Translations under genes and position numbers: made by a program
Sequence record: PP620640
Direction: 5' to 3' (one strand)
DNA: 64,000 nucleotides
Source of the DNA: Escherichia phage fKMPT1
Part shown: in pieces, positions 6,473-44,371 of the stretch
Layout: each line of letters opens with the position of its first letter
How positions within the stretch are numbered: the first letter of the stretch is position 1
The notes under the pieces: generated by a model
Database searches by the model: none
Seen by the model: the letters and a program-made list of their open reading frames with translations, nothing else
Told to the model about the DNA's origin: nothing

Positions 6473-6976
6473 TCAAGATAGTTTTGCAAACTCTCCGTGG
6501 AGTTTTATAGCAGCTTCACAGTAAGCTTTATGGGCTTCTTCAGGTGTATCAAATAGACCAAGTGATGACCTTTTACCTCTGCATGTTATAGTCGCCCTCC
6601 ACTTATTGCAGTCTTTAAAGTAATGAACACCCTTGTAACCTGATTTGTTAGTCGTCTGCTTTACCCTGTTTTGAGCGTTTCCATATTTATCGGTCTCCCT
6701 AAGATTAGAAATGTGATTATTACTCCTGTTGCCATCAATGTGGTCTATCATCTTAGTAGGTTTGTAACCATGCTCAAACCACCAAACAAGGTGATGCACT
6801 TTTATTACAACATCTTTGAATTTAAGCACTTTGTAACCATAAGCATCACTTCCTCCGGCAACCTGACCAGCTTTAGCTTGTCTATTCCTATCATACCTGT
6901 TGTAGAAGACCCCTTTATCGGGGTCGTAAATAAAGTTGTCCTTGTAATCTTGAAGTGTTAGTGAACGGCGTACCAT
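6473..6976 (-). CDS. HNH homing endonuclease with AP2-like DNA-binding domain
   Basis: HLVWWFEHGY...DHIDGNRSNNHISNLRE HNH motif plus GYKGVHYFKDCNKWRA AP2-like segment; overlaps 3' end of the polymerase gene. Confidence 0.8.
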   Translation of the reverse strand: MVRRSLTLQDYKDNFIYDPDKGVFYNRYDRNRQAKAGQVAGGSDAYGYKVLKFKDVVIKVHHLVWWFEHGYKPTKMIDHIDGNRSNNHISNLRETDKYGNAQNRVKQTTNKSGYKGVHYFKDCNKWRATITCRGKRSSLGLFDTPEEAHKAYCEAAIKLHGEFAKLS

Positions 6977-7509
6977 GTTTTACCTACCTTACCAGTACCC
7001 GTGACAAGTGTCTTACTCTTTAATCCAAGATTTTTTGATGCTTGACCATACATTCTATCAATAATCTCCTTAACATCTGGTACAGCTTTTGTTGGAACCT
7101 CTAAAGAAACTTCGTCGTGGTAACTACAGACCCATCTAGCACCAATAGCTGGTTTCCTACCATTTAGAACTGTAAGTTTTCGCTCTGTTAACTCTCTATT
7201 AGCCAAGTTAATCCCCTCATTCTGTACCTGCGCCTCACTACCCATGAGTGTGAAATTCAATAACTTATGTGGAGATTTACACCATAACCACGCTCCAGCG
7301 ACTTTGATATAACCACCTTTGGCAATTGCAGAAGTTTTTCCAAAAACCTCTTCAAGTGCTTTCTTAGTTGCTTTGAAGTCTTCCTCTAACCTATCAAGCA
7401 GCTTTTTAATCTTAGGTAGACGTACAAAGTAAGTTTGTTTAGTCAATGCACCTTCTTCCGTAGATGATGCCTTGATAGTTTTTGCAAACTTCTCGTCTCC
7501 AGCACCGAA
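6958..7509 (-). CDS. DNA polymerase (family A), exon 2 / C-terminal segment
   Basis: Begins FGAGDEK (motif B continuation, compare T7 YGAGDEK), contains motif C YHDEV; track ORF starts at a TTG so no obvious independent start. Confidence 0.8.
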   Translation of the reverse strand, partial: FGAGDEKFAKTIKASSTEEGALTKQTYFVRLPKIKKLLDRLEEDFKATKKALEEVFGKTSAIAKGGYIKVAGAWLWCKSPHKLLNFTLMGSEAQVQNEGINLANRELTERKLTVLNGRKPAIGARWVCSYHDEVSLEVPTKAVPDVKEIIDRMYGQASKNLGLKSKTLVTGTGKVGKTWYAVH

Positions 7510-7785
7510 CAATACATCTGGTCAATACACTCGCAAGGTGTACCAGTTCTCTTATGAACTTCTCCGCATTTCTACGGAGTGTCGGACTATATCACGTAGC
7601 AGGATGCTACCGTTGCACTTGGGAATGGTCATTAGCTTACCACCCTACTCTACTCAGTTCATACGTTAAGTATGCTTTTCGATAGTCTCTGAACGTTCCT
7701 CTCAAGAGGCTTCGCTGCTGATTACCGTATCTTCTCAGACTTAGGCTTCCAGCAATTCACAACGTTTTACATGCGCCACTGACGC
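7510..7785 (-). ncRNA. putative group I intron interrupting DNA polymerase motif B
   Basis: 276-nt ORF-less insertion between ...KNGIY and FGAGDEK...; upstream exon ends in U, intron ends in G; GUAAA near intron 5' end could pair with exon UUUAU (P1). Confidence 0.45.
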
Positions 7786-9924
7786 ATAAATGCCATTTTT
7801 GGCTTTCTTACGACCTTTTGTAATCTCGTGGAGAAGTTCCTCATCCTGTGTATACCTACAACGAACAATATCTTCTTCCTTGTTCAGACCAAAGTAAATA
7901 CTGTTCAGTGTATGTGCATCAGTACCTGTGTATACTTCATAGAGGTCATTCTCAGCATCATAACGAAGGTACTTGTCAGTTTCTGGATTGAGGTACTTAT
8001 CAAGATGCTTGCAATAGTATCTTCCATCCTCTTGCTTGGTAAATTCTACTGACTCTTTACCTTGTGTTACCGCTTTAGTGAACTCTTCATCACCCATAAA
8101 GTTACAAAGAAGAACTAGCTGTGCTGAGTTTTGGTCTACAGAGATGATATCTGTCCCCTCTTCACAAGTCCACACCTCCCTCATAGGTGCTCCATAGACA
8201 GCAGCACCAGACGGTACGTTTACAATACCATATTGTGTCATACGTCCAGTTGAAGTACCAAATACCATTGCACCAGCACTAAGGCGACCATCAGGACGAA
8301 TCTGGTTCAACCAACCTTTTTCATCATCCTTTGAGTTCTCAATAGTTCTGCGTCGGTGCATCAAAGTATAGTACTTAGCAATCTTCTGTCCAAGCTCACC
8401 TTCAATCGTATCATAAGATGATTCAGTAAGTTTTGGTGAAGTACGGATTAAGCAAGGTTCAAGCAAATCTGTGTATTTCTTCACAGACCAGTTATGTTCA
8501 ATGTACTGGACACCTTCATGTTCAACATAACTCAAACCACACCTTTCAACCATCTCATCCCACTTAGGATGCTTTGTAATCATCTTTTTGTTGTCTTTGA
8601 AACGACAAACTTTGACAGGACGACCATCTGAGTCTTTCTTGTAGTTCCAGTCATCTGGAATCCAACCAACTGATTTCAAATAGTCTTTCACAACTGCTAC
8701 CTGAGTCATACGAGAAACTTCGAACTCAATTGGTGTATATGGTGCATCAATCAAACCTGTGTAGCGACTTGACTCAAGCTCAAAGTGGTTAACAACATGG
8801 CTGTTATAGTACTTCACAGTTTTAACTGTTTTTACTGGCTTCCAATCTTTGCACTTCTTACCAATCTTTGCATTCAACTCATTGCAAATTGCACGAGCAT
8901 CCTTCATTGCTACAAAACCTTCCTTGTACTCTTCACCAGTTACAGAGTTGGTTGGTGTATAGCAATTCCGCTTTTCAATGTTAAAAATCTTTGTAGTTGG
9001 CTTACCAAATGGCTTGATTTCATATGTCTGCATCTCACCGTTACGTACCTGCTGACGATACTTTGTCTTAGGGTACTTGGTAATTCTCTTCAGTCCATCT
9101 GCGTGACCAAATGCTTCAACATACTCATTCCAAGCTTTTGCAAACTCTTCTCCAGTGACTTTAACTTTGGTCTTGATAGTTGGAGGAAGATGTGGTTCAA
9201 CTTCTGAAGCAAGCTCATTAGTCAACTTGTCAAGTTCCTTTACATGGAACTCCATAAGCTCTTTATCAGCTTTCCAACCATTGATAGCTTGTTGACTCAT
9301 CCAGAAAGATGTTTCTTTAGCTCGCATGTAGGTTTCATAAGTATCTACGCCACACTTCTTCAGCTTGAGATATTCATTATCCAGTGCACGTTTAGTTTTG
9401 GCGTTAATACGGATATCTTCTACAACACGAGTGAAGATTTCTGCATTCCACACACCCCAATGTTCAATCTCTGGTTTACGTACACCGACACGAGCACCCC
9501 ATGCAGCCAAGCCATGAGCACCTTTATAGCCTTTTGGAGTTGGTCTATCCATCCATTGAACACGAGATTGGATAAGAGAATCCTGAAAGAAATTACTCCA
9601 CGGCTTACACTTTGGATTATCAAAGTTCCACAAATCAGGTGCAATGTGATTGAAAACCCACCAGTCATACCCCAGACCATTATGGATGCAAAGTCGTTTT
9701 GCCTTTAACGCAAACTCAACACCTTCACGCAAGCCACCCTTAATGTACTTGGTATACTTGTGACCGAGGATAGGCTCATCTGTAAAGACCCATACAGGTG
9801 GCTCTTCATCGTCAGATTTATAGTCTGCGAAAGCCATTACGTGTACTTTAGTGAACTCAAGGAGTAAACCATCAGTTTCTGTATCGCCAACTAAATGTAA
9901 GTTTTTAAAATCTACGTTTTCCAT
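7786..9924 (-). CDS. DNA polymerase (family A) with 3'-5' exonuclease domain, exon 1
   Basis: DTETDG exo motif; motif A VDQNSAQLVLL; start taken at MENVDF with upstream GGAG RBS; frame runs 14 codons into insertion before stop at 7741. Confidence 0.85.
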
Positions 9925-10181
9925 TTTTACTCCCTCTAAAATCATTAACCACATACATTACTGCAAAAAATTATAAAAAGCAAGTTGACAATGTACTTGA
10001 CAAGGTGTTAATCTTTGCGAAGTGGGTTTTTACTTAAAAGGTTACTTAACAGTTTAACTATACAGATACTTTAAAACTCTTAAAAGATTATTTAATAGTT
10101 TTTAAAAAGCTTTAAAGTATAACGTATAGAATACGTTAAGATAAAAGATTAAAACTTAATAGTTACTTAAAAGAGGCTTAC

Positions 10182-30240: not shown

Positions 30241-31122
30241 ATGAAAACATCTATCCGCGTTACAGTTCATTCACCAACTAAAGGAACTTATGAAGAAGAG
30301 TTTAACATCATCCAATTCCCTTCTGGTGAGATTGGTGGACACTTTTCACCAGAGTTTGTTGACTTCACTACTTATGCAGCATCATCTATCAACAATGTGA
30401 TTATGATTGTAAAAGGTTATGATAAAGATACATTGTTTGCTGTGGCACTTGCTAAAGAGGCGGTGGACAACTTAGTACCTCATAAGTTTGCTATGAAGAC
30501 CATTATCTTTTACTATTTGCCAAATGCACGTTATGACCGTCACATGTTTAAAGGTGATGCAGCAGCTTTGAAAGTGTTTGCACAACAGGTTAATGCAATG
30601 GGTTTTGATGCAGTCTGTGCAGTTGACCCTCACAGCTATGTACCAGATAACCTGTTTAACTGCTTCCAAAGTATCCCTCAAAATGAAGTTGCAGTTCACT
30701 ATGCAAATGACCCTCTGGTTGATTACTTAGTAGCCCCAGATGCAGGTGCTTCTAAGAAGATTGCAGAGACTGCTAAAGAGGTGGATAAACCATATATCAC
30801 AATGTCTAAGGTGCGTAACCTTAAGACTGGTGAAATTACTGGTATGCGAATCCTTGATGATGTTGATTTGACAGATAAAACCGTCATGATTCTGGATGAT
30901 ATTTGTGATGGAGGACGAACCTTCATAGAAGCAGCTAAACATCTTCGTGAAGCAGGTGCAAAACGTGTGGAACTCTATGTAACTCATGGTATTTTCTCTA
31001 AAGGGGTTGAAAACTTGCTTGACAATGGTATTGACCATATCTACACTACAAACTCTTTAGGGGAAGCTAAAGACCGTGGCTTAACACATTATGCTCAAGT
31101 TACTGTAGCAAACCTTGATTAA
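30241..31122 (+). CDS. ribose-phosphate pyrophosphokinase (PRPP synthetase) family enzyme; candidate ADPR-pyrophosphate synthetase
   Basis: 293 aa; PRPP/phosphoribosyl-binding loop VMILDDICDGGRTF. Confidence 0.75.
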   Translation: MKTSIRVTVHSPTKGTYEEEFNIIQFPSGEIGGHFSPEFVDFTTYAASSINNVIMIVKGYDKDTLFAVALAKEAVDNLVPHKFAMKTIIFYYLPNARYDRHMFKGDAAALKVFAQQVNAMGFDAVCAVDPHSYVPDNLFNCFQSIPQNEVAVHYANDPLVDYLVAPDAGASKKIAETAKEVDKPYITMSKVRNLKTGEITGMRILDDVDLTDKTVMILDDICDGGRTFIEAAKHLREAGAKRVELYVTHGIFSKGVENLLDNGIDHIYTTNSLGEAKDRGLTHYAQVTVANLD

Positions 31123-31167: not shown

Positions 31168-32949
31168 ATGACTAAATCACTTTATGCAGTACCAGCAGGT
31201 TTAAACGCAGACGCTTACAAATCTGGTCACATCTACCAGTATCCTAGTGCAATAGAGTACTTGATGTTCAACCTGACACCACGTAGTGATAAATGGTTTA
31301 ACAGCCCCTTAGCAATTGACGGTGTAGTGGCTTTTGGTATTCAACGTTTTGTTAAAGATTACCTGATAGACCACTGGAACGCCACCTTCTTCGAACGTGA
31401 CAAAAAAGAAGCAATTGACGAAATCTTAGAAGTCATGAACGGTGTTCTGGGTAAAGATGCTATTGGTCGAGAACATTGGGAAGCACTCCACGACTTAGGT
31501 TATCTACCAGTTGAAGTATACGCTGTAGAAGAAGGCACAGTTGTCCCTATGCGTGTACCAATGATTGTCTTCCAGAACACTGTTTCAGGTTTCCATTGGG
31601 TAGCGGGGTATCTGGAAGATGCTTTCTCTGCTGAGATTTGGAAGGCTTGTACCATTGCAACTATTGCATTGCACTACAAACGTATCTGTAAGAAGTGGTC
31701 TGACCTTACTTGTGACAATGACTTGCATTTACCTTATCAGTGCCATGACTTTGCTATGCGTGGTATGTCTGGCTTTACTGATGACGCATTTAATGCTGTA
31801 GGCCACTTAACCAGCTTTAAAGGGACTGATAGCTTCCCTGCTGTATACACGGCTAAACGCATCTATGGACAGCCCTACCCAATCTCTGATATTGGTAGTT
31901 CTGTACCAGCCACTGAACACTCTGTAATGTGTGCAAACATTGCTTGGGAAGGTGGTAATGAGTTGATTGAAGAAGAAAGACGCTTTAAAGGTGAGTTACA
32001 AACCTTCCGTCGTTTCTTAACAGAAACTTACCCAACTGGTATTGCAAGTGTTGTTTCAGACACTTATAATTTCTGGAAAACTGTATCAGAAATCTTACCA
32101 GCACTTCGCAAAGAGATTATGGAACGTGACGGAAAACTGGTAATTCGTCCTGACTCTGGCGACCCTGTACATATTGTCACAGGTTATAAAGCAATCCACT
32201 TAGAGTGCGCTAAAAAAGCTTATTACGAACACCTAAGCAAGCTGGAAGCCAGCGACACAAAGTTGAATGCTGTTCTGAACATGAATCTTGAAGACATTCA
32301 CTATATTATGGCTGGGTGGTTACGTACAGAAGGCTATGAAATGGTGGTTGACAGAGAAGACTTTGAAGTAGCTGATACAGTGCTTCTGAAAGATGCCTAC
32401 ATCAACGGCTCTGCAAACGTTGTAACACGTCCTGTAGCAGAGATTGATGGAGCTATTAAGACCCTGTATAACATCTTTGGAGGGACTATCAACGCTAAAG
32501 GTTTTAAAGTACTGGATGAGCACATTGGACTTATTTATGGTGACTCTATCACGTTGGAACGTGCAAACGAAATCCTTAAGCGTTTGTATGAAATGGGTTT
32601 TGCAAGCTCTAACGTAGTGTTTGGTGTAGGTTCTTACACTTACCAGTACATGACTCGTGACACCTTTGCATTTGCTGTTAAAGCAACTCTGGCAAGCATT
32701 GGTGGCAAAGAGATTATGCTTGCAAAAGACCCTAAAACAGATAGTGGTGTTAAGAAGTCTGCTTTTGGTGGTGTAGCACCTATGTGGGATGGTGATAAGC
32801 TGAAAGCTGTAGATGGCTATGGGTTCCAGAGCTTTGCAGATGTGCTTGAACATCCAGCTTGTGCTTTACGTTTAGTCTTTAGTGACTCTGAGCAGTTTGG
32901 TTACACAAATCTTGGTGATATTCGAAATAATATTGACAAGCAGCTTTAA
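31168..32949 (+). CDS. nicotinamide phosphoribosyltransferase (NAMPT) family enzyme; candidate nicotinamide ADPR transferase
   Basis: 593 aa with NAMPT-like core; directly downstream of PRPS-like gene; terminator follows. Confidence 0.75.
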   Translation: MTKSLYAVPAGLNADAYKSGHIYQYPSAIEYLMFNLTPRSDKWFNSPLAIDGVVAFGIQRFVKDYLIDHWNATFFERDKKEAIDEILEVMNGVLGKDAIGREHWEALHDLGYLPVEVYAVEEGTVVPMRVPMIVFQNTVSGFHWVAGYLEDAFSAEIWKACTIATIALHYKRICKKWSDLTCDNDLHLPYQCHDFAMRGMSGFTDDAFNAVGHLTSFKGTDSFPAVYTAKRIYGQPYPISDIGSSVPATEHSVMCANIAWEGGNELIEEERRFKGELQTFRRFLTETYPTGIASVVSDTYNFWKTVSEILPALRKEIMERDGKLVIRPDSGDPVHIVTGYKAIHLECAKKAYYEHLSKLEASDTKLNAVLNMNLEDIHYIMAGWLRTEGYEMVVDREDFEVADTVLLKDAYINGSANVVTRPVAEIDGAIKTLYNIFGGTINAKGFKVLDEHIGLIYGDSITLERANEILKRLYEMGFASSNVVFGVGSYTYQYMTRDTFAFAVKATLASIGGKEIMLAKDPKTDSGVKKSAFGGVAPMWDGDKLKAVDGYGFQSFADVLEHPACALRLVFSDSEQFGYTNLGDIRNNIDKQL

Positions 32950-37180: not shown

Positions 37181-37729
37181 ATGAAGAATTTGATTCTAGG
37201 TTTGTGCTTAATGTTTACAGCACACTTATCTTATGCAGTTGACTGCCCAGAGCTATCAATTAGCCAAAAAGTAAACATGTTAAAAGCTTACCAGTATGGT
37301 GAGAACAACATGGGTAAAGGTTGGGGTATCACTCTAGCAGCTATAGCCTTACAAGAGTCAGAGTTAGGTCTGAAGGTAGAGAATAAAAAGACCCATGACT
37401 ATGGTATTTTCCAGAATCACTTGAAGACTGTTGTAAAGCGTAACAAAATCAGTCCTAATGTGGCTAAAAAGAAACTCTTAAAAGATTTTGACTATGCTGC
37501 AAAAGAGACACATAAAGAGCTTGAGTTTTGGACTAAGGTACATGGTCACCCGAAGTCAAAGAAGACTTTACAAAAAGTTTTGGCATCATATAATGCTGGG
37601 TATTCGTACAAAATCCCTAAAGCTAAGAAATACTCTCAAGATGTCTATAACAATATGAAAGTTATTGCTCAATGTGAATTTGCAACAAACATTTCTAAGG
37701 TAAATCATGAAAAAATTAAGAAAGTCTGA
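37181..37729 (+). CDS. secreted lytic-transglycosylase-like protein
   Basis: signal peptide MKNLILGLCLMFTAHLSYA; LAAIALQESELG resembles SLT catalytic region. Confidence 0.45.
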   Translation: MKNLILGLCLMFTAHLSYAVDCPELSISQKVNMLKAYQYGENNMGKGWGITLAAIALQESELGLKVENKKTHDYGIFQNHLKTVVKRNKISPNVAKKKLLKDFDYAAKETHKELEFWTKVHGHPKSKKTLQKVLASYNAGYSYKIPKAKKYSQDVYNNMKVIAQCEFATNISKVNHEKIKKV

Positions 37730-38402
37730 TGAAGTCCTGTGCCACGCTTATGACTTGCATCCTCATGAGTTAGGTCTTGATTCCTGTGTATGGACTCCAG
37801 AACAGTGCAGGGATTTTGAAGACACTGCAAGAGAAGTTGTATGTTCACTTGAAGAGTTCCACACATCAGAACCAATTGTGAACGTTGTGGATAAAGAAAC
37901 TGGACAAGCTATAGGTGTAAGTCGTGATAGTTTAGTCATAGTCAATGAAGACCTTGTAGAAAAAGGTAACCTCATCTTAGCAGATATTGATGGTGTTCTT
38001 ACAAATTTTAATCACGAAGATTGCTCAACGGAATTGACTGACGGGTCATTTTCACAGTACACTAATCTTCTTGACTCTGTAAGAGCAAAACCAACATATA
38101 TTTTCAGTATCATTGATGCAATTGCTAATCATGCTGCCATTGGCCTCTTAACAGCAAGAGGTGAAACTCAGAGAATACCTACTGAGATGTTCTTGAGGCA
38201 CAATATAGAGCATGATTACATGCTTTTTATGCGTGGTTTTGGAACTAACTCTCTAAGTGCAGAAAGTTTAAAAGTGAGGATGATTCAGTCTTGCATTCTT
38301 CCTTACTTTAATATAGTATGTTTTATAGAAGATACAGAGAAGAATGTTCAGAAGGTTAACAGAATCCTTCCACACATCAAAACCATGCTAGTTAAACATT
38401 GA
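37707..38402 (+). CDS. HAD-like phosphatase/nucleotidase candidate
   Basis: LILADIDGVLT resembles HAD motif I DxDGT. Confidence 0.4.
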   Translation: MKKLRKSDEVLCHAYDLHPHELGLDSCVWTPEQCRDFEDTAREVVCSLEEFHTSEPIVNVVDKETGQAIGVSRDSLVIVNEDLVEKGNLILADIDGVLTNFNHEDCSTELTDGSFSQYTNLLDSVRAKPTYIFSIIDAIANHAAIGLLTARGETQRIPTEMFLRHNIEHDYMLFMRGFGTNSLSAESLKVRMIQSCILPYFNIVCFIEDTEKNVQKVNRILPHIKTMLVKH

Positions 38403-38929: not shown

Positions 38930-39277
38930 ATGACATTTAAAGAGTTTTGTCAAGCTACTTTCATAATTGTTTTCTTAGTTGGGGCAGGTGTCTGGGGAGG
39001 ATACTCTTACAGAGACTACCAAGTTGCTGAAGCTGAGCTAAATAATGAGAAACTAATAAGTGTCGCTAAAGATGCTTATCAGGAAGGTTTAGTCACACTC
39101 AGCACCAATTACAAAAATGATTTGAAAGACGTGCTTGCTAAGAATAAGCATACAAAAGAGGTACTAACATATGAAAAAACTAAGCCAGAGTTTTATAATG
39201 TTTGTGTTACTGATAATTATGTCAGGGTGTTCAACGAACAAAGTGAACAGTACATTCAAAAACTCCCAAGTAAGTGA
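38930..39277 (+). CDS. i-spanin-like protein (N-terminal TM, periplasmic coiled-coil)
   Basis: TM segment FIIVFLVGAGVWGG then charged helical region; overlapped by lipoprotein ORF. Confidence 0.45.
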   Translation: MTFKEFCQATFIIVFLVGAGVWGGYSYRDYQVAEAELNNEKLISVAKDAYQEGLVTLSTNYKNDLKDVLAKNKHTKEVLTYEKTKPEFYNVCVTDNYVRVFNEQSEQYIQKLPSK

Positions 39278-39440
39278 GAGTGACAAGTACACTCAAGAAG
39301 AATCAAGATTCACTGTCAAAGGCAACACTGGTAGTGATGTGGCAGCAGCCCTTGAGTTTTATCGTGATGGTTTTTACCAGTGCACAATCAAAGCTAATAA
39401 CCTTATTGATATGATTTTATTAGGAAACAAACAGCAATGA
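39171..39440 (+). CDS. o-spanin-like lipoprotein
   Basis: lipoprotein signal with lipobox IMSGC; starts inside 38930-39277 in another frame. Confidence 0.45.
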   Translation: MKKLSQSFIMFVLLIIMSGCSTNKVNSTFKNSQVSESDKYTQEESRFTVKGNTGSDVAAALEFYRDGFYQCTIKANNLIDMILLGNKQQ

Positions 39441-39706
39441 CAGAGAATGAAGACACTTTCTATGTAGAAGGGTACTTACTACTACCACGACCAAAAGAAA
39501 CTTATATACGGGTTGATTTCTCACCAACCATTATGGATAACGTGATGTGTCATATCTTTATGCAAGGTGTCACAGCACAACTTAAGCATGTTGGTAAAGA
39601 GTGCAAAATAAAGGTTGACACTCATCCAGAAATCAAAGAGAATCACTACACATGGTTCTTGCCAGACTCTAAAGAAATCTTAGCAGTTCTTAAAACGAGG
39701 AAATGA
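39437..39706 (+). CDS. hypothetical protein
   Basis: 89-aa ORF. Confidence 0.5.
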   Translation: MTENEDTFYVEGYLLLPRPKETYIRVDFSPTIMDNVMCHIFMQGVTAQLKHVGKECKIKVDTHPEIKENHYTWFLPDSKEILAVLKTRK

Positions 39707-40017
39707 TTATGCAATTCCAGCCAACAAATCGTGGATTTTCTTATGCAGAATTTAAAGATGCTAAAGGAGAGATTTGTACTTTACAAGAAAGTTCATCATA
39801 TGAACCATGTATCTGGTTAGGTGCTAAAGAGGTCTCTGTTCAGTACCTAGATGGTGGCTGGAAAACACTTGATATCCAAGCGTTAGTAGGCAAAGATTTT
39901 GTAGGTAACCAAAGAATGAAACTCAACCAAGAACAGGTGAAAGAGTTATTGCCATACCTTCAGTACTTTGCTGAAAATGGTGAATTACCAACAGAGGAAC
40001 TTACAAATGCAGATTAA
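39703..40017 (+). CDS. hypothetical protein
   Basis: 104-aa ORF. Confidence 0.5.
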   Translation: MIMQFQPTNRGFSYAEFKDAKGEICTLQESSSYEPCIWLGAKEVSVQYLDGGWKTLDIQALVGKDFVGNQRMKLNQEQVKELLPYLQYFAENGELPTEELTNAD

Positions 40018-40333
40018 TGGAAGAGACTTTGTAGCCGTTTACTACGAGAAAGATAAAGAAGTTGGCGTAGCACAAGTATCTTATGGTAATGGTAAGTGGT
40101 TATATGGCACAATCGCAGTAGTAGGAACAAGAAGTGATACAAAAACTTTTAAAGACTGTGTTGACCTTCTTGAAGAATCCATCCACAATCATTGGTGTCT
40201 GATATGGATGACTGACAACGAAGTGATAGAACGCTTCAAAAAGATTGGTATCAACATTGATAGCATTGAGCATGTTGACTTGTATGAGCTAACTGAGAAG
40301 GTAAATTATGAAAGTAATACTAGCCAGAGATAA
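39968..40333 (+). CDS. hypothetical protein
   Basis: 121-aa ORF. Confidence 0.5.
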   Translation: MLKMVNYQQRNLQMQINGRDFVAVYYEKDKEVGVAQVSYGNGKWLYGTIAVVGTRSDTKTFKDCVDLLEESIHNHWCLIWMTDNEVIERFKKIGINIDSIEHVDLYELTEKVNYESNTSQR

Positions 40334-40527
40334 AAAGACACGGAAAATTATCCGGTCAGCAGTATTCATTGGAAGAAATAAAGTGATTCCATTTACAGCA
40401 AATGATGTAATAGCCTACAGGGAAAAATTAGCATTTAGTTATTGCTTGCGTGGCTTCATCTCACAACCATTGGAAGACTTCAAAAGTCGTTGTGGCAAAG
40501 GTATCATCATTCAAGAGGCAATTATTC

Positions 40528-40728
40528 ATGGCTGACTTCTGCAAAGATTGTGCTATCGAAATGTTCGGGCGGGATACAGGAGACTTAAAAGGTCTTATCA
40601 CTGAAGATGACTTTAAAGCTGGCTATGCAATGCCAGTAATCTGTGAAGGCTGTGGATGTATCTGGGTAGACCACGAAGGACAACGTGTAAAACCTTCAGA
40701 AGATAAAGAATCTTGGGAGAGATGTTAA
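40528..40728 (+). CDS. small zinc-ribbon protein
   Basis: MADFCKDCAIE...CEGCGC; start after AAGAGG. Confidence 0.45.
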   Translation: MADFCKDCAIEMFGRDTGDLKGLITEDDFKAGYAMPVICEGCGCIWVDHEGQRVKPSEDKESWERC

Positions 40729-41514
40729 ATGGGTATTGTAAAAATCATCAATGGTGATATCTTTGCAGCATTTGATAAAGGTAAGTTTGACATCATCGGT
40801 CACGGTTGCAACTGTATGAACTTAATGGGTGCAGGTATCGCTGACAAGATTTCTAAACTTTACCCAAAAGCATATGAGACCGATACAGAAGTTTATCTGT
40901 ATGCAGGTGGTATAGGTCACAAACCCTGTGAAAATTTACTAGGCAATTTCTCTGTAGCACGTTTAGAACAAGGCCGTATAGCTAACCTTTACACTCAGCT
41001 TAAGACTGGTAAAGATGCCCGATACAGTGCTTTAGAGTCATCTTTGAAACAGCTTAACAGATACTGTGAAGTTAACCAGTTGAAGAAAGTTGGTTTACCT
41101 ATGATTGGTGCAGGTATCGGTGGACTGGACCCTCAAGCCGTTACCGTTATCATTAATCAGGTGATGAAGAGTGTAGATGTGTATCTGTATGTCTACGAAG
41201 GGGAGATGTACCACGAGTTACGCTCAGGTTGGAAGAACTACTGTGAACCAGAATACTTTGCAGGTGTAGTAACGTTCACTGATGATGCAGTTACCCTCTT
41301 CAGACGAAGAAAAGGTAAGATACATCAAAGTAACCCTCCGGTTGAAAAGATGTCTCTAAGTAACGCTCTAGTTACCCACCTGTCGAAGAGCAATCACAGA
41401 ATTGCCGTGACATTTGGTAGCGATGCAGATACATATATCTATGCAAGAACTGATGAGGATGTTGAGGAAATTTTCTCTTCACCAGAAGTTACCTTCTTAG
41501 ACGCAAAGAACTAA
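40729..41514 (+). CDS. macro-domain (ADP-ribose binding/hydrolase) protein
   Basis: N-terminal IINGDIF...DIIGHGCNCMNLMGAGIADKI resembles macro-domain Gly-rich ADP-ribose pocket. Confidence 0.6.
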   Translation: MGIVKIINGDIFAAFDKGKFDIIGHGCNCMNLMGAGIADKISKLYPKAYETDTEVYLYAGGIGHKPCENLLGNFSVARLEQGRIANLYTQLKTGKDARYSALESSLKQLNRYCEVNQLKKVGLPMIGAGIGGLDPQAVTVIINQVMKSVDVYLYVYEGEMYHELRSGWKNYCEPEYFAGVVTFTDDAVTLFRRRKGKIHQSNPPVEKMSLSNALVTHLSKSNHRIAVTFGSDADTYIYARTDEDVEEIFSSPEVTFLDAKN

Positions 41515-41544
41515 GAAACTCTGTATAATATTCACAATAGACTA

Positions 41545-41590
41545 AGCCTTCCTTATCTGGTAAATTTTTTAGGTAAGGAGGGCTTTTTCA
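41545..41590 (+). terminator. rho-independent terminator
   Basis: ccttcctta...taaggaggg hairpin + TTTTT. Confidence 0.55.
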
Positions 41591-41768
41591 TTTTAGAATT
41601 GTGCAGGTAGAGTTCTGGACAGAAATCTGTAGAGAGAATTTTGAACTCCAAAGAGAAAATTCATTTTCAAACTGTGCAGGTAATCTCCAAAGAGCTTTTT
41701 CATTTTCAAAACGTGCAGAGAAAAATCAGGTCGGGCAAGAAAAATCATTTTCGAATTGTGCAGGTAGG
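41588..41768 (+). repeat. four direct repeats (iteron-like) cattttcNaaNtgtgcaggta
   Basis: copies at about 41588, 41659, 41700, 41745 with variable spacers; followed by AT-rich tract 41915-41945. Confidence 0.6.
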
Positions 41769-41945
41769 TGGGTGCAGGTGGGGATGTCGCCATTTCTCAC
41801 AAGGCTACCACATCTGAAAAGAAAAGTCAACAGAAAAATTTGTAGCGGATTGAAAAATAATTCTTGATTGTAGTTCTGTTTTGTGGTAGTCGCGTGCGCC
41901 CGTTTCATTACAGTTTTTTGAAAAAAAATATTTTTAAAATTTTTA

Positions 41946-41974
41946 TTGACTCCTCGAACGGGTTTTTATAGTAT
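41946..41974 (+). promoter_or_regulatory. sigma70-like promoter feeding the small-ORF array
   Basis: TTGACT - 17 nt - TAGTAT. Confidence 0.5.
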
Positions 41975-41980
41975 TTGCAT

Positions 41981-42035
41981 CAACGGGGAGGGAATGAACT
42001 TCCCACTAACTAACCTTAAACTAGGAGATTCTAAA
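41981..42035 (+). repeat. type-B conserved leader (hairpin + Shine-Dalgarno); copies also at 44043, 44906, 46128, 46696, 47291
   Basis: caacGGGGAGGgaatgaCCTTCCCCactaagtaaaacccttaaactaggagattcaaaaATG repeated 6 times. Confidence 0.8.
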
Positions 42036-42242
42036 ATGATTTACAGCCGTGAATTGATGGTCACAACTAACGTTAACACAAAGGTAAAACGTTTTTATAT
42101 GCAAGTATGCGGCGCATGGCGTAGAATATCAGAATCTGATTATTGCAACTATGTAGAAACGGCTATTAATTCTAATTGCTATCTTACAAAGAATACAAAG
42201 CGACATATAAAACAGACAGCGGTTTACTATTACGATATATAA
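42036..42242 (+). CDS. cassette small protein 1
   Basis: 68 aa; ATG after conserved leader; track ORF 41946 is a spurious upstream extension. Confidence 0.55.
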   Translation: MIYSRELMVTTNVNTKVKRFYMQVCGAWRRISESDYCNYVETAINSNCYLTKNTKRHIKQTAVYYYDI

Positions 42243-42332
42243 AAAGTACTTTACAAGGGGCTTATAGTTCGATAAAGTAAGCCCCAGATAAAAAGCTTTA
42301 TCACATTAACCTTAAACTAGGAGATTCAAAAA
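42243..42332 (+). repeat. type-A conserved intergenic element (8-bp hairpin + Shine-Dalgarno); copies also at 42717, 43058, 44373, 45166
   Basis: tttacaaGGGGCTTAtagttcgataaagTAAGCCCCagataaagagctttac...aaactaggagattcaaaaATG repeated 5 times. Confidence 0.8.
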
Positions 42333-42716
42333 ATGGCTTATCGTGCACCTAAATTCATCAACAAAGACAACTTCCGCAACGCACTGGAAAAATCACTTGG
42401 TGAGAACTTTACAGGTCAGATTATTGTTGTTCACGCATATAATTTTAAGTATGATATTAACGGGAACAGAATCAACCATTACACGGCAACCATGTTAGAT
42501 GGTGCGCTTTCAAGTGAAAAAGCCGTACTGAATGCACTTGCTGGACGTGGCAAAAACCTGATAAAATGCGATAAGAGACGTTATCAAGGTGGCGCATATG
42601 GTTATGATGATGCTGTTTACCATCTTGAAAATATGGGCTATCAGGTGGAAAAAGCCGGAGTGTCTCAAATAATCGGCAGTGATGGTTATGTGACAATTTT
42701 CAAAATTAACGGATAA
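42333..42716 (+). CDS. cassette small protein 2
   Basis: 127-aa ORF behind type-A leader. Confidence 0.6.
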   Translation: MAYRAPKFINKDNFRNALEKSLGENFTGQIIVVHAYNFKYDINGNRINHYTATMLDGALSSEKAVLNALAGRGKNLIKCDKRRYQGGAYGYDDAVYHLENMGYQVEKAGVSQIIGSDGYVTIFKING

Positions 42717-42801
42717 AGTACTTTACAAGGGGCTTATAGTTCGATAAAGTAAGCCCCAGATAAAGAGCTTTACCACTCAATCCTAAATTGGAGATTCTAA
42801 A

Positions 42802-44011: not shown

Positions 44012-44098
44012 TTTTGGTTTTAAAAGCAAGTAAATTACTAATCAACGGGAGGGATGACCTCCCCACTAAGTAAAACCCTTAAACTAGGAGATTCTAAA

Positions 44099-44371
44099 AT
44101 GTATACTACTAACAACGGTCGCACCTTAAACGTAACCCTGCGCCACTATGTAAACGGGGTGATGCACTTCGAGGATTTACGGGCTGAACAGCACATTTTG
44201 GATTGGCAACTTGCAGGATTCCAAAAAACTGCTACCGGATACGGGAAAAAGATTCCAACTAGTTGGAAAGTATACTACGAAGGACGTTTGCGCAGAATTT
44301 ATCAGGATGTATATAGCAATAGCGCATCAACTTACATCATGGTAAAAGGTAAAAAATTACACTTAGTGTAA
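44099..44371 (+). CDS. cassette small protein 6
   Basis: 90 aa; ATG after type-B leader. Confidence 0.55.
   Translation: MYTTNNGRTLNVTLRHYVNGVMHFEDLRAEQHILDWQLAGFQKTATGYGKKIPTSWKVYYEGRLRRIYQDVYSNSASTYIMVKGKKLHLV

What the first reader, a model, noticed from the sequence alone, without database searches (positions are those of the whole stretch)
40729..41514. Macro-domain protein in a phage that also encodes an NAD+ reconstitution pair
The N-terminus (IINGDIF...DIIGHGCNCMNLMGAGIADKI) looks like a macro-domain ADP-ribose pocket. Macro domains bind or hydrolyse ADP-ribose and remove ADP-ribosyl modifications, so this could reverse ADP-ribosylation-based immunity or feed ADPR to the NAD+ pathway.
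Basis: partly seen in the sequence, partly recalled or inferred. Interest (0 to 1): 0.6.

Follow-up and report, generated by a model that had tools for sequence, protein, structure and literature searches.

The report
Two-domain macro-domain hydrolase of a Felix-like phage
This gene encodes an ADP-ribose-processing (macro-domain) enzyme fused to a small domain of unknown type, in a Felix O1-like Salmonella phage that also rebuilds NAD+; its relatives in other phages disarm bacterial defences, but this version has never been tested.

Summary
Window 40729-41514 (+) is a 261-aa ORF whose first ~157 residues form a macro domain: Pfam 32 bits against a cutoff of 22, and an AlphaFold model matching TARG1, DarG and Poa1p at TM 0.73-0.83. 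The window is Salmonella phage fBSPA4, a Felixounavirus. The gene is the orthologue of Bas63 gp95 (96.6% identity). The upstream "NAD+ pair" is the experimentally proven NARP1 (Bas63 gp79/gp80).

The macro domain belongs to a phage family carrying Gln where TARG1 and DarG have their catalytic Lys. Two members have been characterised. T4 Tk.4/AdfM is needed to resist DarTG2. Vibrio phage Gary Adpp converts ADPR-1''-phosphate to ADPR so that NARP1 can beat the aRES defence. Sequence cannot separate them: 82 bits to Tk.4, 52 to Adpp, 77 to NARP1-adjacent Pakpunavirus macros.

New here is a C-terminal ~100-aa β-rich domain. It has no relatives in Pfam, PDB, BFVD or 1.84 billion proteins outside Ounavirinae-type macro proteins, evolves 5-10 times faster than the macro half, and occurs as divergent alleles.

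Verdict: an ordinary enzyme family, already annotated, in an uncharacterised two-domain variant. Interest is moderate.

The parts
40729..41514 (+). Complete ORF, 261 aa plus stop. Orthologue of Bas63 gp95 'putative phosphatase'.
   Evidence: 96.6% aa identity to Bas63 gp95. phrog_335 7e-113.
40729..41199 (+). Macro domain, residues 1-157 (α/β/α fold). Key positions: D10 (40756-40758), H25 (40801-40803), N28 (40810-40812), G34-A35-G36 loop 1 (40828-40836), Q90 in the invariant NLYTQ motif (40996-40998), G127-A-G-I-G-G132 loop 2 (41107-41124).
   Evidence: Pfam Macro 32.1 bits, residues 25-141. PDB profile hits to TARG1 and DarG. AF2 plus Foldseek. PADLOC DarG HMM, residues 24-158, 4.5e-13. Residue correspondences from the alignments. 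Invariant columns. dN/dS 0.01-0.05.
41200..41511 (+). Linker helix (residues 158-167) plus a C-terminal orphan domain (residues ~174-250). The domain has six β-strands and one C-terminal helix, with conserved P174, G179 and Y236. It is lineage-specific and fast-evolving.
41544..41585 (+). Terminator-like hairpin (17-bp stem followed by a T-run) 30 nt after the stop codon. The macro gene closes a transcription unit.
   Evidence: The equivalent site in phage wV8 is annotated as a Rho-independent terminator.
40528..40728 (+). Small Cys-rich ORF (66 aa, CxxC...CxxCxC) whose stop abuts the macro ATG. Possibly translationally coupled. Function unknown, and membership in the system is uncertain.
   Evidence: 100% identical to Bas63 gp94. 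No Pfam hit. In divergent relatives the abutting ORF differs: another zinc-ribbon-like protein in L007, an unrelated protein in L006.
30241..31122 (+). Adps (ADP-ribose pyrophosphokinase, PRPP-synthetase-like), first enzyme of NARP1. Context only, not adjacent.
   Evidence: Annotation. NCBIfam ribP_PPkin 123 bits. 79.9% identical to Bas63 gp79. NARP1 function shown in Bas63 (10.1101/2024.02.11.579819).
31168..32949 (+). Namat (nicotinamide ADP-ribose transferase, NadV/NAMPT-like), second enzyme of NARP1. Context only, about 7.8 kb upstream of the macro gene.
   Evidence: Annotation. NCBIfam NF006629 465 bits. 96.0% identical to Bas63 gp80..

Best explanation
The gene encodes a two-domain counter-defence enzyme.

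Shown computationally: the N-terminal 157 residues are an intact macro domain of the phage 'Gln-type' Poa1p-like family (T4 Tk.4/AdfM, Vibrio phage Gary Adpp, phrog_335). The parts of the ADP-ribose pocket are all present: D10 for the adenine, G34-A-G36 and G127-AGIG-G132 for the diphosphate and distal ribose, and H25 and N28 next to ribose C1''.

Inferred: the domain binds an ADP-ribose that carries a substituent on C1'' and hydrolyses that bond, releasing free ADP-ribose.

My committed reading of its main job: like its closest characterised relative T4 Tk.4/AdfM, it removes the ADP-ribose that DarT2-type toxins attach to thymidines in single-stranded phage DNA, so replication can continue. 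The fast-evolving C-terminal orphan domain would then serve as a targeting or partner-binding module, analogous in layout but not in sequence to the toxin-binding C-terminal domain of DarG.

Whatever the substrate, the product is free ADPR, which is exactly what this phage's NARP1 enzymes (Adps and Namat) turn back into NAD+. The two roles are not mutually exclusive.
For: - Macro identity and fold.
- The closest characterised homologue is T4 Tk.4: 82 bits, 34-35% identity over the whole macro domain, sharing the HGCNC, NLYTQ and IGAGIG motifs. A tk.4 knockout sensitises T4 to DarTG2, and T4 has no NARP1.
- The only defence-library and NCBIfam hits are DarG models, on the macro half: PADLOC 4.5e-13, NCBIfam 1.6e-12.
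- The best structural matches are TARG1 and DarG.
- N28 aligns with the conserved Asn of DarG and PhiKZ AdfM. Mutating a conserved catalytic-site Asn lowers PhiKZ AdfM's DNA de-ADP-ribosylation; that this is the N28-equivalent residue is my inference, since the paper's text does not name it.
- In the NJ tree the two-domain clade sits with Tk.4-like and other single-domain proteins whose neighbourhoods lack NARP1, outside the NARP1-adjacent clades.
- The extra domain is conserved but evolves 5-10 times faster than the macro half. The gene body is swapped for a divergent allele in an otherwise 94%-identical backbone. This pattern suits a protein facing variable host macromolecules better than a metabolite phosphatase.
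- The Bas63 orthologue is dispensable on laboratory and several defence strains, as expected for a conditional anti-defence gene.
Against: - No experiment exists on any Ounavirinae member.
- The catalytic Lys of DarG and TARG1 is replaced by Gln (Q90), and TARG1 Asp125 by Gly. T4 Tk.4 has the same Gln and its biochemistry is untested, so its anti-DarTG2 mechanism is itself an inference.
- The only in-vitro activity shown in the Gln-type family is ADPR-1''-P phosphatase (Gary Adpp).
- The window protein scores almost as well against NARP1-adjacent Pakpunavirus macros (77 bits) as against Tk.4 (82 bits).
- The tree has no bootstrap support.
- The C-terminal domain shows no similarity to the DarG C-terminal domain and is acidic (pI 5.5). 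Its targeting role is speculation.
- DarTG was not in the PhageMaP panel.
Confidence: 0.4

Rival explanations
1. Adpp-like role. The macro domain is an ADPR-1''-phosphate phosphatase that converts the product of RES-type NAD+ phosphorylases (aRES) into ADPR. This would extend the phage's NARP1 into a dispersed 'NARP1-AP' pathway, even though the gene is not in the NARP1 operon.
For: - It belongs to the same Gln-type family and has the same catalytic constellation (H, N, GxG, Q, G-x-G..GG) as Gary Adpp, the only biochemically tested member.
- H25 matches Poa1p H23, in an ADPR-1''-P phosphatase.
- It scores 77 bits to the NARP1-adjacent Pakpunavirus macros.
- NARP1 is present and proven in the orthologous phage Bas63.
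- Macro and NARP1 co-occur, on the same strand in the same early region, in every Ounavirinae-type locus examined.
- aRES systems come from E. coli, Klebsiella and Enterobacter, which are relevant hosts.
- The published survey scanned only ±2 genes around NARP1 and would have missed this gene. No Escherichia, Salmonella or Felix-like phage appears in its Table S1.
Against: - The gene lies ~7.8 kb and 14 annotated genes downstream of Namat, beyond rIIA/rIIB and the spanins.
- It is only 27% identical (52 bits) to Gary Adpp, less than to T4 Tk.4.
- A small-molecule phosphatase has no obvious need for a fast-evolving extra domain or allelic replacement.
- Co-occurrence within one virus subfamily may simply reflect shared ancestry.
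- Close single-domain relatives and T4-like phages carry the macro without NARP1.
Confidence: 0.3
2. The protein is a hydrolase for another ADP-ribose conjugate or signal. Candidates are ADP-ribosylated RNA (CmdT-type), ADP-ribosylated proteins, O-acetyl-ADP-ribose from sirtuin-type defences, or TIR-derived 1''-linked ADPR signals. The C-terminal domain would set the specificity.
For: - Macro domains of the TARG1/Poa1p class are promiscuous for 1''-linked substituents (general knowledge; reviewed in PMC9503650).
- That survey predicts phage macro domains mostly target small ADPR derivatives.
- GenBank annotators call some orthologues O-acetyl-ADP-ribose deacetylase.
- The orphan domain implies some specificity not seen in characterised members.
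Against: - No homologue in the Gln-type family has been linked to these substrates.
- No ADP-ribosyltransferase is annotated in the stretch of the phage record examined.
- This is a residual category without positive evidence.
Confidence: 0.15
3. Housekeeping in phage RNA repair. As with yeast Poa1p, the protein would clear ADPR-1''-P or ADPR>p by-products of 2'-phosphotransferase reactions, linked to the nearby polynucleotide-kinase-like gene.
For: - There is Poa1p-like sequence and fold similarity.
- A gene annotated as polynucleotide kinase in Bas63, pEP20 and the Erwinia phage (window 37707-38402) lies 2.3 kb upstream in conserved synteny. Its homologues carry weak HAD_PNKP hits.
Against: - No Tpt1/KptA or 2H phosphoesterase is annotated in the part of the record examined.
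- The window's PNK-like protein itself gave no Pfam hit at E ≤ 0.01.
- T4-type Pnkp/ligase repair does not generate ADPR-1''-P (established knowledge).
- Fast evolution of the gene argues against housekeeping.
Confidence: 0.05
4. The protein is a non-catalytic ADP-ribose binder, acting as a sponge or sensor rather than an enzyme.
For: - The DarG/TARG1 catalytic Lys and Asp are absent.
- Some macro domains only bind ADPR (general knowledge).
Against: - H25, N28, the GxG loops and NLYTQ are invariant across 19 sequences down to 32% identity.
- dN/dS is 0.01-0.05.
- Gary Adpp, with the same Gln, is catalytically active.
Confidence: 0.05

Closest known systems
T4 Tk.4 / AdfM (anti-DarT factor macrodomain; preprint 10.1101/2025.11.20.689424)
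   Same: It is the closest characterised homologue: 34-35% identity over residues 3-157, 82 bits. It shares the HGCNC, NLYTQ and P-x-IGAGIG motifs and has Gln at the TARG1 Lys84 position. It is also a phage early-region accessory gene that is dispensable without the defence.
   Different: Tk.4 is a single 155-aa domain, while the window protein carries an extra ~100-aa C-terminal domain. T4 lacks NARP1. The Tk.4 evidence is genetic only, and nothing has been tested for the Felix-like protein.
Adpp of NARP1-AP (Vibrio phage Gary gp137; preprint 10.64898/2026.01.28.702374)
   Same: It belongs to the same Gln-type macro family (27% identity, 52 bits; T4 Tk.4 versus Adpp is 77 bits), with the same conserved H, N, GxG and Q residues. 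Both phages encode NARP1 (Adps plus Namat).
   Different: Adpp sits inside the three-gene Adps-macro-Namat operon and is a single domain. Here the macro gene is ~7.8 kb and 14 annotated genes downstream of Namat, ends a different transcription unit, and has an extra domain.
DarG antitoxin macro domain and PhiKZ gp104 AdfM (PMC13309987)
   Same: Both have the macro fold (TM 0.76-0.79 to the DarG structures) and are hit by the DarG HMMs. The Asn equivalent to N28 is conserved. DarG likewise has a two-domain layout of macro plus a C-terminal module.
   Different: DarG and PhiKZ AdfM keep the catalytic Lys ('PTK'), whereas here it is Gln. The window protein scores only 26 bits to PhiKZ AdfM and 35-43 to DarG. 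The NCBIfam DarG score is 47 against a cutoff of 250. The C-terminal domains are unrelated, and there is no adjacent darT.
Human TARG1/OARD1 and yeast Poa1p
   Same: These are the best PDB matches by sequence profile (3.6e-11) and fold (TM 0.82). The H-x-C-N-C motif is shared with Poa1p (H23 corresponds to H25).
   Different: TARG1's catalytic Lys84 and Asp125 correspond to Q90 and G131 here. Both are single-domain cellular proteins.

Membership tests
Macro domain superfamily (Pfam PF01661) | Sequence matches the family HMM above the curated gathering score | tested here: met
   32.1 bits against a cutoff of 22, E 1.2e-7, residues 25-141 covering profile positions 2-117 of 118.
Macro domain superfamily (Pfam PF01661) | Three-layer α/β/α macro fold | tested here: met
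   AF2 model pLDDT 84.7, pTM 0.85. Foldseek probability 1.0 and target TM 0.82 to TARG1, 0.79 to DarG, 0.73-0.74 to Poa1p.
Macro domain superfamily (Pfam PF01661) | ADP-ribose pocket motifs: N-terminal Asp for adenine, Gly-rich loop 1, Gly-rich loop 2 | tested here: met
   D10 (GD), G34-A-G36 and G127-AGIG-G132 align with the corresponding TARG1, DarG and Tk.4 positions and are invariant in 19 homologues. The roles of these residues come from established macro-domain structures, not from tests here. Loop 1 has lower model confidence (pLDDT 63 for residues 31-40).
Macro domain superfamily (Pfam PF01661) | Binds or hydrolyses ADP-ribose derivatives | not testable with these tools
   Needs ITC, thermal-shift or enzyme assays.
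Phage Gln-type Poa1p-like macro family (T4 Tk.4/AdfM, Gary Adpp; phrog_335) | Matches the phrog_335 profile and shares the H-x-[CA]-N-C, N-x-[YH]-x-Q and [IL]-G-[AC]-G motifs | tested here: met
   phrog_335 7e-113. Motifs shown in the alignments. 82 bits to Tk.4, 52 to Adpp, 77 to JG004.
Phage Gln-type Poa1p-like macro family (T4 Tk.4/AdfM, Gary Adpp; phrog_335) | Single-domain architecture of about 146-186 aa | tested here: not met
   The protein is 261 aa with an additional conserved C-terminal domain. The characterised members are 155 aa (Tk.4) and 157 aa (Adpp).
AdfM (anti-DarTG2 macrodomain) | Loss of the gene sensitises the phage to DarTG2, or the protein removes ADP-ribose from DarT2-modified ssDNA | not testable with these tools
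   Shown only for T4 Tk.4 (genetics) and PhiKZ gp104 (in vitro). The PhageMaP panel for Bas63 contained no DarTG.
DarG antitoxin (NCBIfam NF048014 equivalog; PADLOC DarG) | Full-length match above the equivalog cutoff, including the C-terminal DarT-binding domain | tested here: not met
   47.4 bits against a cutoff of 250. Only profile positions 4-151 of 338 (NCBIfam) and 18-145 of 329 (PADLOC) align.
DarG antitoxin (NCBIfam NF048014 equivalog; PADLOC DarG) | Catalytic Lys (TARG1 K84 / DarG 'PTK') and an adjacent darT toxin gene | tested here: not met
   Q90 occupies the Lys position. The neighbours are small phage ORFs with no darT.
NARP1-AP (Adps-Adpp-Namat) | Macro gene within the NARP1 operon (published criterion: within two genes of Adps/Namat) | tested here: not met
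   The macro gene starts 7,780 bp after the Namat stop, with 14 annotated genes between them, including rIIA/rIIB and the spanins. No Felix-like phage appears in Table S1.
NARP1-AP (Adps-Adpp-Namat) | Adps and Namat present in the same genome | tested here: met
   Window 30241-31122 and 31168-32949 are orthologues of Bas63 gp79/gp80.
NARP1-AP (Adps-Adpp-Namat) | ADPR-1''-phosphate phosphatase activity | not testable with these tools
   Needs an LC-MS assay with purified ADPR-1''-P, as.
TARG1/OARD1 | Catalytic dyad Lys84 / Asp125 | tested here: not met
   These align with Q90 and G131.

The most novel reading that the evidence does not exclude
The Ounavirinae protein is a new kind of 'complete orphan antitoxin'. 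A Gln-type macro hydrolase has been fused to a lineage-specific, rapidly diversifying domain that recognises a host ADP-ribosylating or NAD+-cleaving effector (such as DarT2 or aRES) or its modified substrate. The ADPR it releases is channelled to the phage's own NARP1, physically or functionally coupling the reversal of ADP-ribose-based immunity to NAD+ reconstitution. The divergent alleles would then track different host effector variants.
Probability: 0.12. Interest if true: 0.7.

Novelty: new variant of a known kind. Interest (0 to 1): 0.4.

Why it matters
Felixounaviruses are common therapeutic and typing phages: about 250 genomes carry this gene. Bas63 is also the model phage in which NARP1 was discovered.

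Two 2025-26 preprints assign two different counter-defence roles, anti-DarTG2 and anti-aRES, to what is shown here to be one sequence family. The Felix-like member sits between them. It has NARP1 in the genome but is closest to the T4 protein, and it alone carries an extra orphan domain.

A single set of experiments on an existing Bas63 knockout could show three things. First, whether the family is bifunctional. Second, whether NARP1-AP is more widespread than the 15% estimated from operon adjacency. Third, what the new domain does.

If the gene turns out to be simply another Adpp or AdfM, the finding is routine annotation.

Tried and rejected
- **C-terminal domain by sequence.** Pfam at E ≤ 10 gave nothing. 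PHROGs matched only phrog_335 itself. The PDB sequence and profile searches covered only the macro half.
- **Exhaustive hmmsearch with the C-terminal profile.** The hits in long proteins (P0033-P0044) proved to be PQQ β-propeller and YDG-repeat proteins matching via several short β-hairpin stretches. I rejected them as repeat or compositional noise. P0032 and P0038 are fragments of two-domain proteins.
- **Separating AdfM from Adpp by similarity or tree.** This was not decisive: 82, 77 and 52 bits, and the NJ tree has no bootstrap. I first used K460/RYC as 'the' Adpp type, then corrected this after reading Gary's real sequence in Table S1.
- **Literature.** PhageMaP has no phenotype for Bas63 gene 95 and no DarTG or RES system in its panel. 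The NARP1, CmdTAC and AdfN papers do not mention this protein. The Migulavirinae preprint concerns the host ThsA macro domain and is irrelevant. No paper co-mentions Felix-like phages and macro domains.
- **Neighbouring ORFs.** None gave an informative Pfam hit.
- **Conserved partner.** The small upstream ORF is not conserved in the divergent relatives, so it is rejected as a conserved partner.
Full report
**1. Observation**

Window 40729-41514 (+) is a single ORF of 261 codons plus a stop. The window is 100% identical to Salmonella phage fBSPA4 (OR711204.1), a Felix O1-like myovirus. Window position equals record position minus 23180. The deposited record calls the gene a 'hypothetical protein'. 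Other Felixounavirus records call the orthologue 'putative phosphatase', 'macro domain protein' or 'O-acetyl-ADP-ribose deacetylase'.

**2. Is it a macro domain?**

Yes, on four lines of evidence:
- Pfam PF01661 scores 32.1 bits against a cutoff of 22, over residues 25-141.
- phrog_335 matches end to end at 7e-113.
- A profile of 19 homologues hits human TARG1 (3.6e-11), M. tuberculosis DarG (3.5e-9) and T. aquaticus DarG (1.5e-7) over residues ~7-157.
- An AlphaFold2 model (mean pLDDT 84.7, pTM 0.85) matches TARG1, DarG and Poa1p with Foldseek probability 1.0 and target TM 0.73-0.83.

The residues that line the ADP-ribose pocket in solved macro domains are present and invariant in the family: D10, H25, N28, G34-A-G36, and G127-A-G-I-G-G132. 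All PDB matches stop at about residue 160.

**3. The NAD+ context**

A PRPP-synthetase-like gene (30241-31122) and a NadV-like gene (31168-32949) lie upstream on the same strand. I located Bas63 (MZ501086.1), the Felixounavirus in which NARP1 was discovered (10.1101/2024.02.11.579819). The window proteins are 79.9% (Adps) and 96.0% (Namat) identical to Bas63 gp79 and gp80. The macro protein is 96.6% identical to Bas63 gp95, 'putative phosphatase'.

The macro gene is not part of that operon. It starts 7.8 kb after Namat, with rIIA, rIIB, a PNK-like gene, the spanins and small ORFs in between (14 annotated genes in total). It is followed directly by a strong terminator-like hairpin at 41544-41585. 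The same site is annotated as a Rho-independent terminator in wV8.

**4. Which macro family, and what do its relatives do?**

tblastn finds the N-terminal ~155 residues in 2,798 phage records (T4-like, phi92-like, Pakpunavirus and others). Only about 257 records, all Ounavirinae, cover the full length. Three experimentally studied phage macro proteins are relevant.

- **T4 Tk.4.** It was renamed AdfM because a tk.4 knockout makes T4 sensitive to DarTG2. It is 155 aa and 35% identical to residues 3-157 (E 3e-24).
- **Adpp of Vibrio phage Gary.** This macro protein is encoded between Adps and Namat. It dephosphorylates ADPR-1''-phosphate, the product of the RES-domain defence aRES, to ADPR so that NARP1 can work. 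Its sequence comes from the paper's Table S1.
- **PhiKZ gp104.** It is also called AdfM and removes ADP-ribose from DarT2-modified ssDNA in vitro.

| Pair | Bits |
|---|---|
| window – Tk.4 | 82 |
| window – Pakpunavirus NARP1-adjacent macro (JG004) | 77 |
| window – Gary Adpp | 52 |
| window – TARG1 | 47 |
| window – DarG | 35-43 |
| window – PhiKZ gp104 | 26 |
| Tk.4 – Gary Adpp | 77 |
| PhiKZ gp104 – Taq DarG | 82 |
| PhiKZ gp104 – Tk.4 | 21 |

(All scores.)

Tk.4, Adpp, the Pakpunavirus proteins and the window protein share H-x-[CA]-N-C, N-x-[YH]-x-Q and [IL]-G-[AC]-G..GG motifs. All have Gln where TARG1 (Lys84), DarG and PhiKZ gp104 ('PTK') have the catalytic Lys. So T4 'AdfM' and Gary 'Adpp' are one Gln-type Poa1p-like family, and PhiKZ 'AdfM' is a true DarG-type macro. 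The window protein is a member of the first group.

It is not a DarG. The NCBIfam DarG equivalog scores 47 bits against a cutoff of 250, and only the macro half aligns.

**5. The C-terminal domain**

Residues ~158-261 are conserved in length and secondary structure in homologues down to 32% identity. They fold into a linker helix, six β-strands and a terminal helix.

The domain has no detectable relatives:
- It gives no Pfam hit.
- Its only BFVD match is its own orthologue.
- A profile search of 1.84 billion representative proteins found it only in two-domain macro proteins and their fragments. The remaining weak hits are β-propeller or repeat noise.

Every divergent two-domain homologue whose contig I could read lies in the same Ounavirinae synteny: Adps-Namat-rIIA-rIIB-...-macro. 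The Erwinia Kolesnikvirus protein at that position is also 260 aa.

Nei-Gojobori estimates among Felixounaviruses give ω of 0.01-0.05 for the macro half and 0.17-0.40 for the C-terminal half. Amino-acid identities (macro/C-terminal) are 76/48% to Citrobacter phage Michonne and 53/23% to the P0009 allele.

The P0009 contig is 94% identical in nucleotides to the window over 9.3 kb. It loses all nucleotide similarity from about codon 48 of the macro gene to its end, and regains it downstream. The gene therefore circulates as divergent alleles in a conserved backbone.

**6. Function**

*Shown (computationally):* an intact, strongly constrained macro domain of the Tk.4/Adpp family, plus a real, faster-evolving orphan domain.

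*Inferred:* the enzyme cleaves a substituent from C1'' of ADP-ribose and releases ADPR.

*Committed reading (0.4):* an AdfM-like reversal of DarT2 ADP-ribosylation of phage ssDNA. The reasons are as follows:
- Tk.4 is the closest characterised relative, and it acts without NARP1.
- The two-domain clade groups away from the NARP1-adjacent clades in the NJ tree.
- Close single-domain relatives lack NARP1 nearby.
- A fast-evolving accessory domain and allele swapping fit an interaction with variable macromolecules.

*Main rival (0.3):* an unlinked Adpp that makes NARP1 proof against RES-type NAD+ phosphorylases. The reasons are as follows:
- The only in-vitro activity in this Gln-type family is ADPR-1''-P phosphatase.
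- The catalytic constellation, including the Poa1p-like His, is the same.
- NARP1 is present.
- The published survey could not have detected a gene 14 genes away.

The two roles are not exclusive, and either way the product is the NARP1 substrate.

*Minor rivals:* other ADP-ribose conjugates or signals (0.15), RNA-repair by-product clearance (0.05), and a non-catalytic binder (0.05).

The Bas63 knockout is dispensable on S17, MG1655, TerY-P and AVAST-4 hosts (scores +0.6 to +1.1). Neither DarTG nor RES was in that screen.

**7. Novelty and verdict**

Three things are new:
- A two-domain architecture with an orphan, rapidly diversifying C-terminal module that is restricted to Ounavirinae.
- The recognition that 'AdfM' (T4) and 'Adpp' belong to one family.
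- The possibility that the NARP1 model phage Bas63 carries an overlooked, unlinked third component.

I rate it a new variant of a known kind, with interest 0.4.

Noticed in passing
window 41573-41845: The 430-bp non-coding gap after the macro gene holds 4-5 copies of a ~34-nt direct repeat (…TTCATTTTCAAA[C/A]TGTGCAG) spaced 39-82 nt apart, just after the terminator hairpin. The megablast query 39700-42800, which spans this gap, matched at 2-5 places per Felixounavirus genome, so something in that 3.1-kb stretch may be dispersed. They could be phage promoter or regulator sites.
   Followed up: partly
window 42011-42036 and 42307-42332 (also upstream of an ATG inside ORF 44054-44371): A 26-nt leader, TAACCTTAAACTAGGAGATTC[T/A]AAAA, contains an RBS and ends in the A of an ATG, and it recurs before several small ORFs. 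It suggests that the annotated TTG start of ORF 41946-42242 is wrong and the real start is the ATG at 42036.
   Followed up: partly
L008:10144-10837 versus window 40872-41566: A metagenomic Felixounavirus contig is 94% identical to the window over 9.3 kb but shares no nucleotide similarity across most of the macro gene. The protein is 53% (macro) and 23% (C-terminal) identical. This is allelic replacement at this one locus.
   Followed up: yes
literature; L003:4923-5390 (T4 tk.4), L005:12518-13006 (PhiKZ gp104): The name AdfM is used for two proteins from different macro subfamilies. T4 Tk.4 is Gln-type and Poa1p/Adpp-like (77 bits to Gary Adpp). PhiKZ gp104 is Lys-type and DarG-like (82 bits to Taq DarG). 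They score only 21 bits to each other.
   Followed up: yes
window 40528-40728: A 66-aa Cys-rich ORF (CxxC…CxxCxC, probably a zinc ribbon) ends exactly where the macro ATG begins. It is 100% identical to Bas63 gp94. In one divergent relative a different zinc-ribbon-like ORF occupies the same spot, and in another the ORF there is unrelated.
   Followed up: partly
window 30241-31122 versus 31168-32949: Adps is only 79.9% identical to Bas63 gp79, while the adjacent Namat is 96.0% identical to gp80. Many Felixounavirus records align only from nucleotide 54 of the pair. The rates along the NARP1 operon are uneven, or there is mosaicism.
   Followed up: no
window 6473-9945 (- strand): The DNA polymerase is annotated as two ORFs (7741-9945 and 6958-7512) with an HNH endonuclease ORF (6473-6976) at the junction. 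The polymerase gene appears to be split or invaded by a homing endonuclease.
   Followed up: no
window 37707-38402 and 38930-39440: fBSPA4 annotates these as hypothetical proteins. The Bas63 and pEP20 records call the orthologues polynucleotide kinase and i-/o-spanin. The PNK-like protein gave no Pfam hit at E ≤ 0.01.
   Followed up: partly
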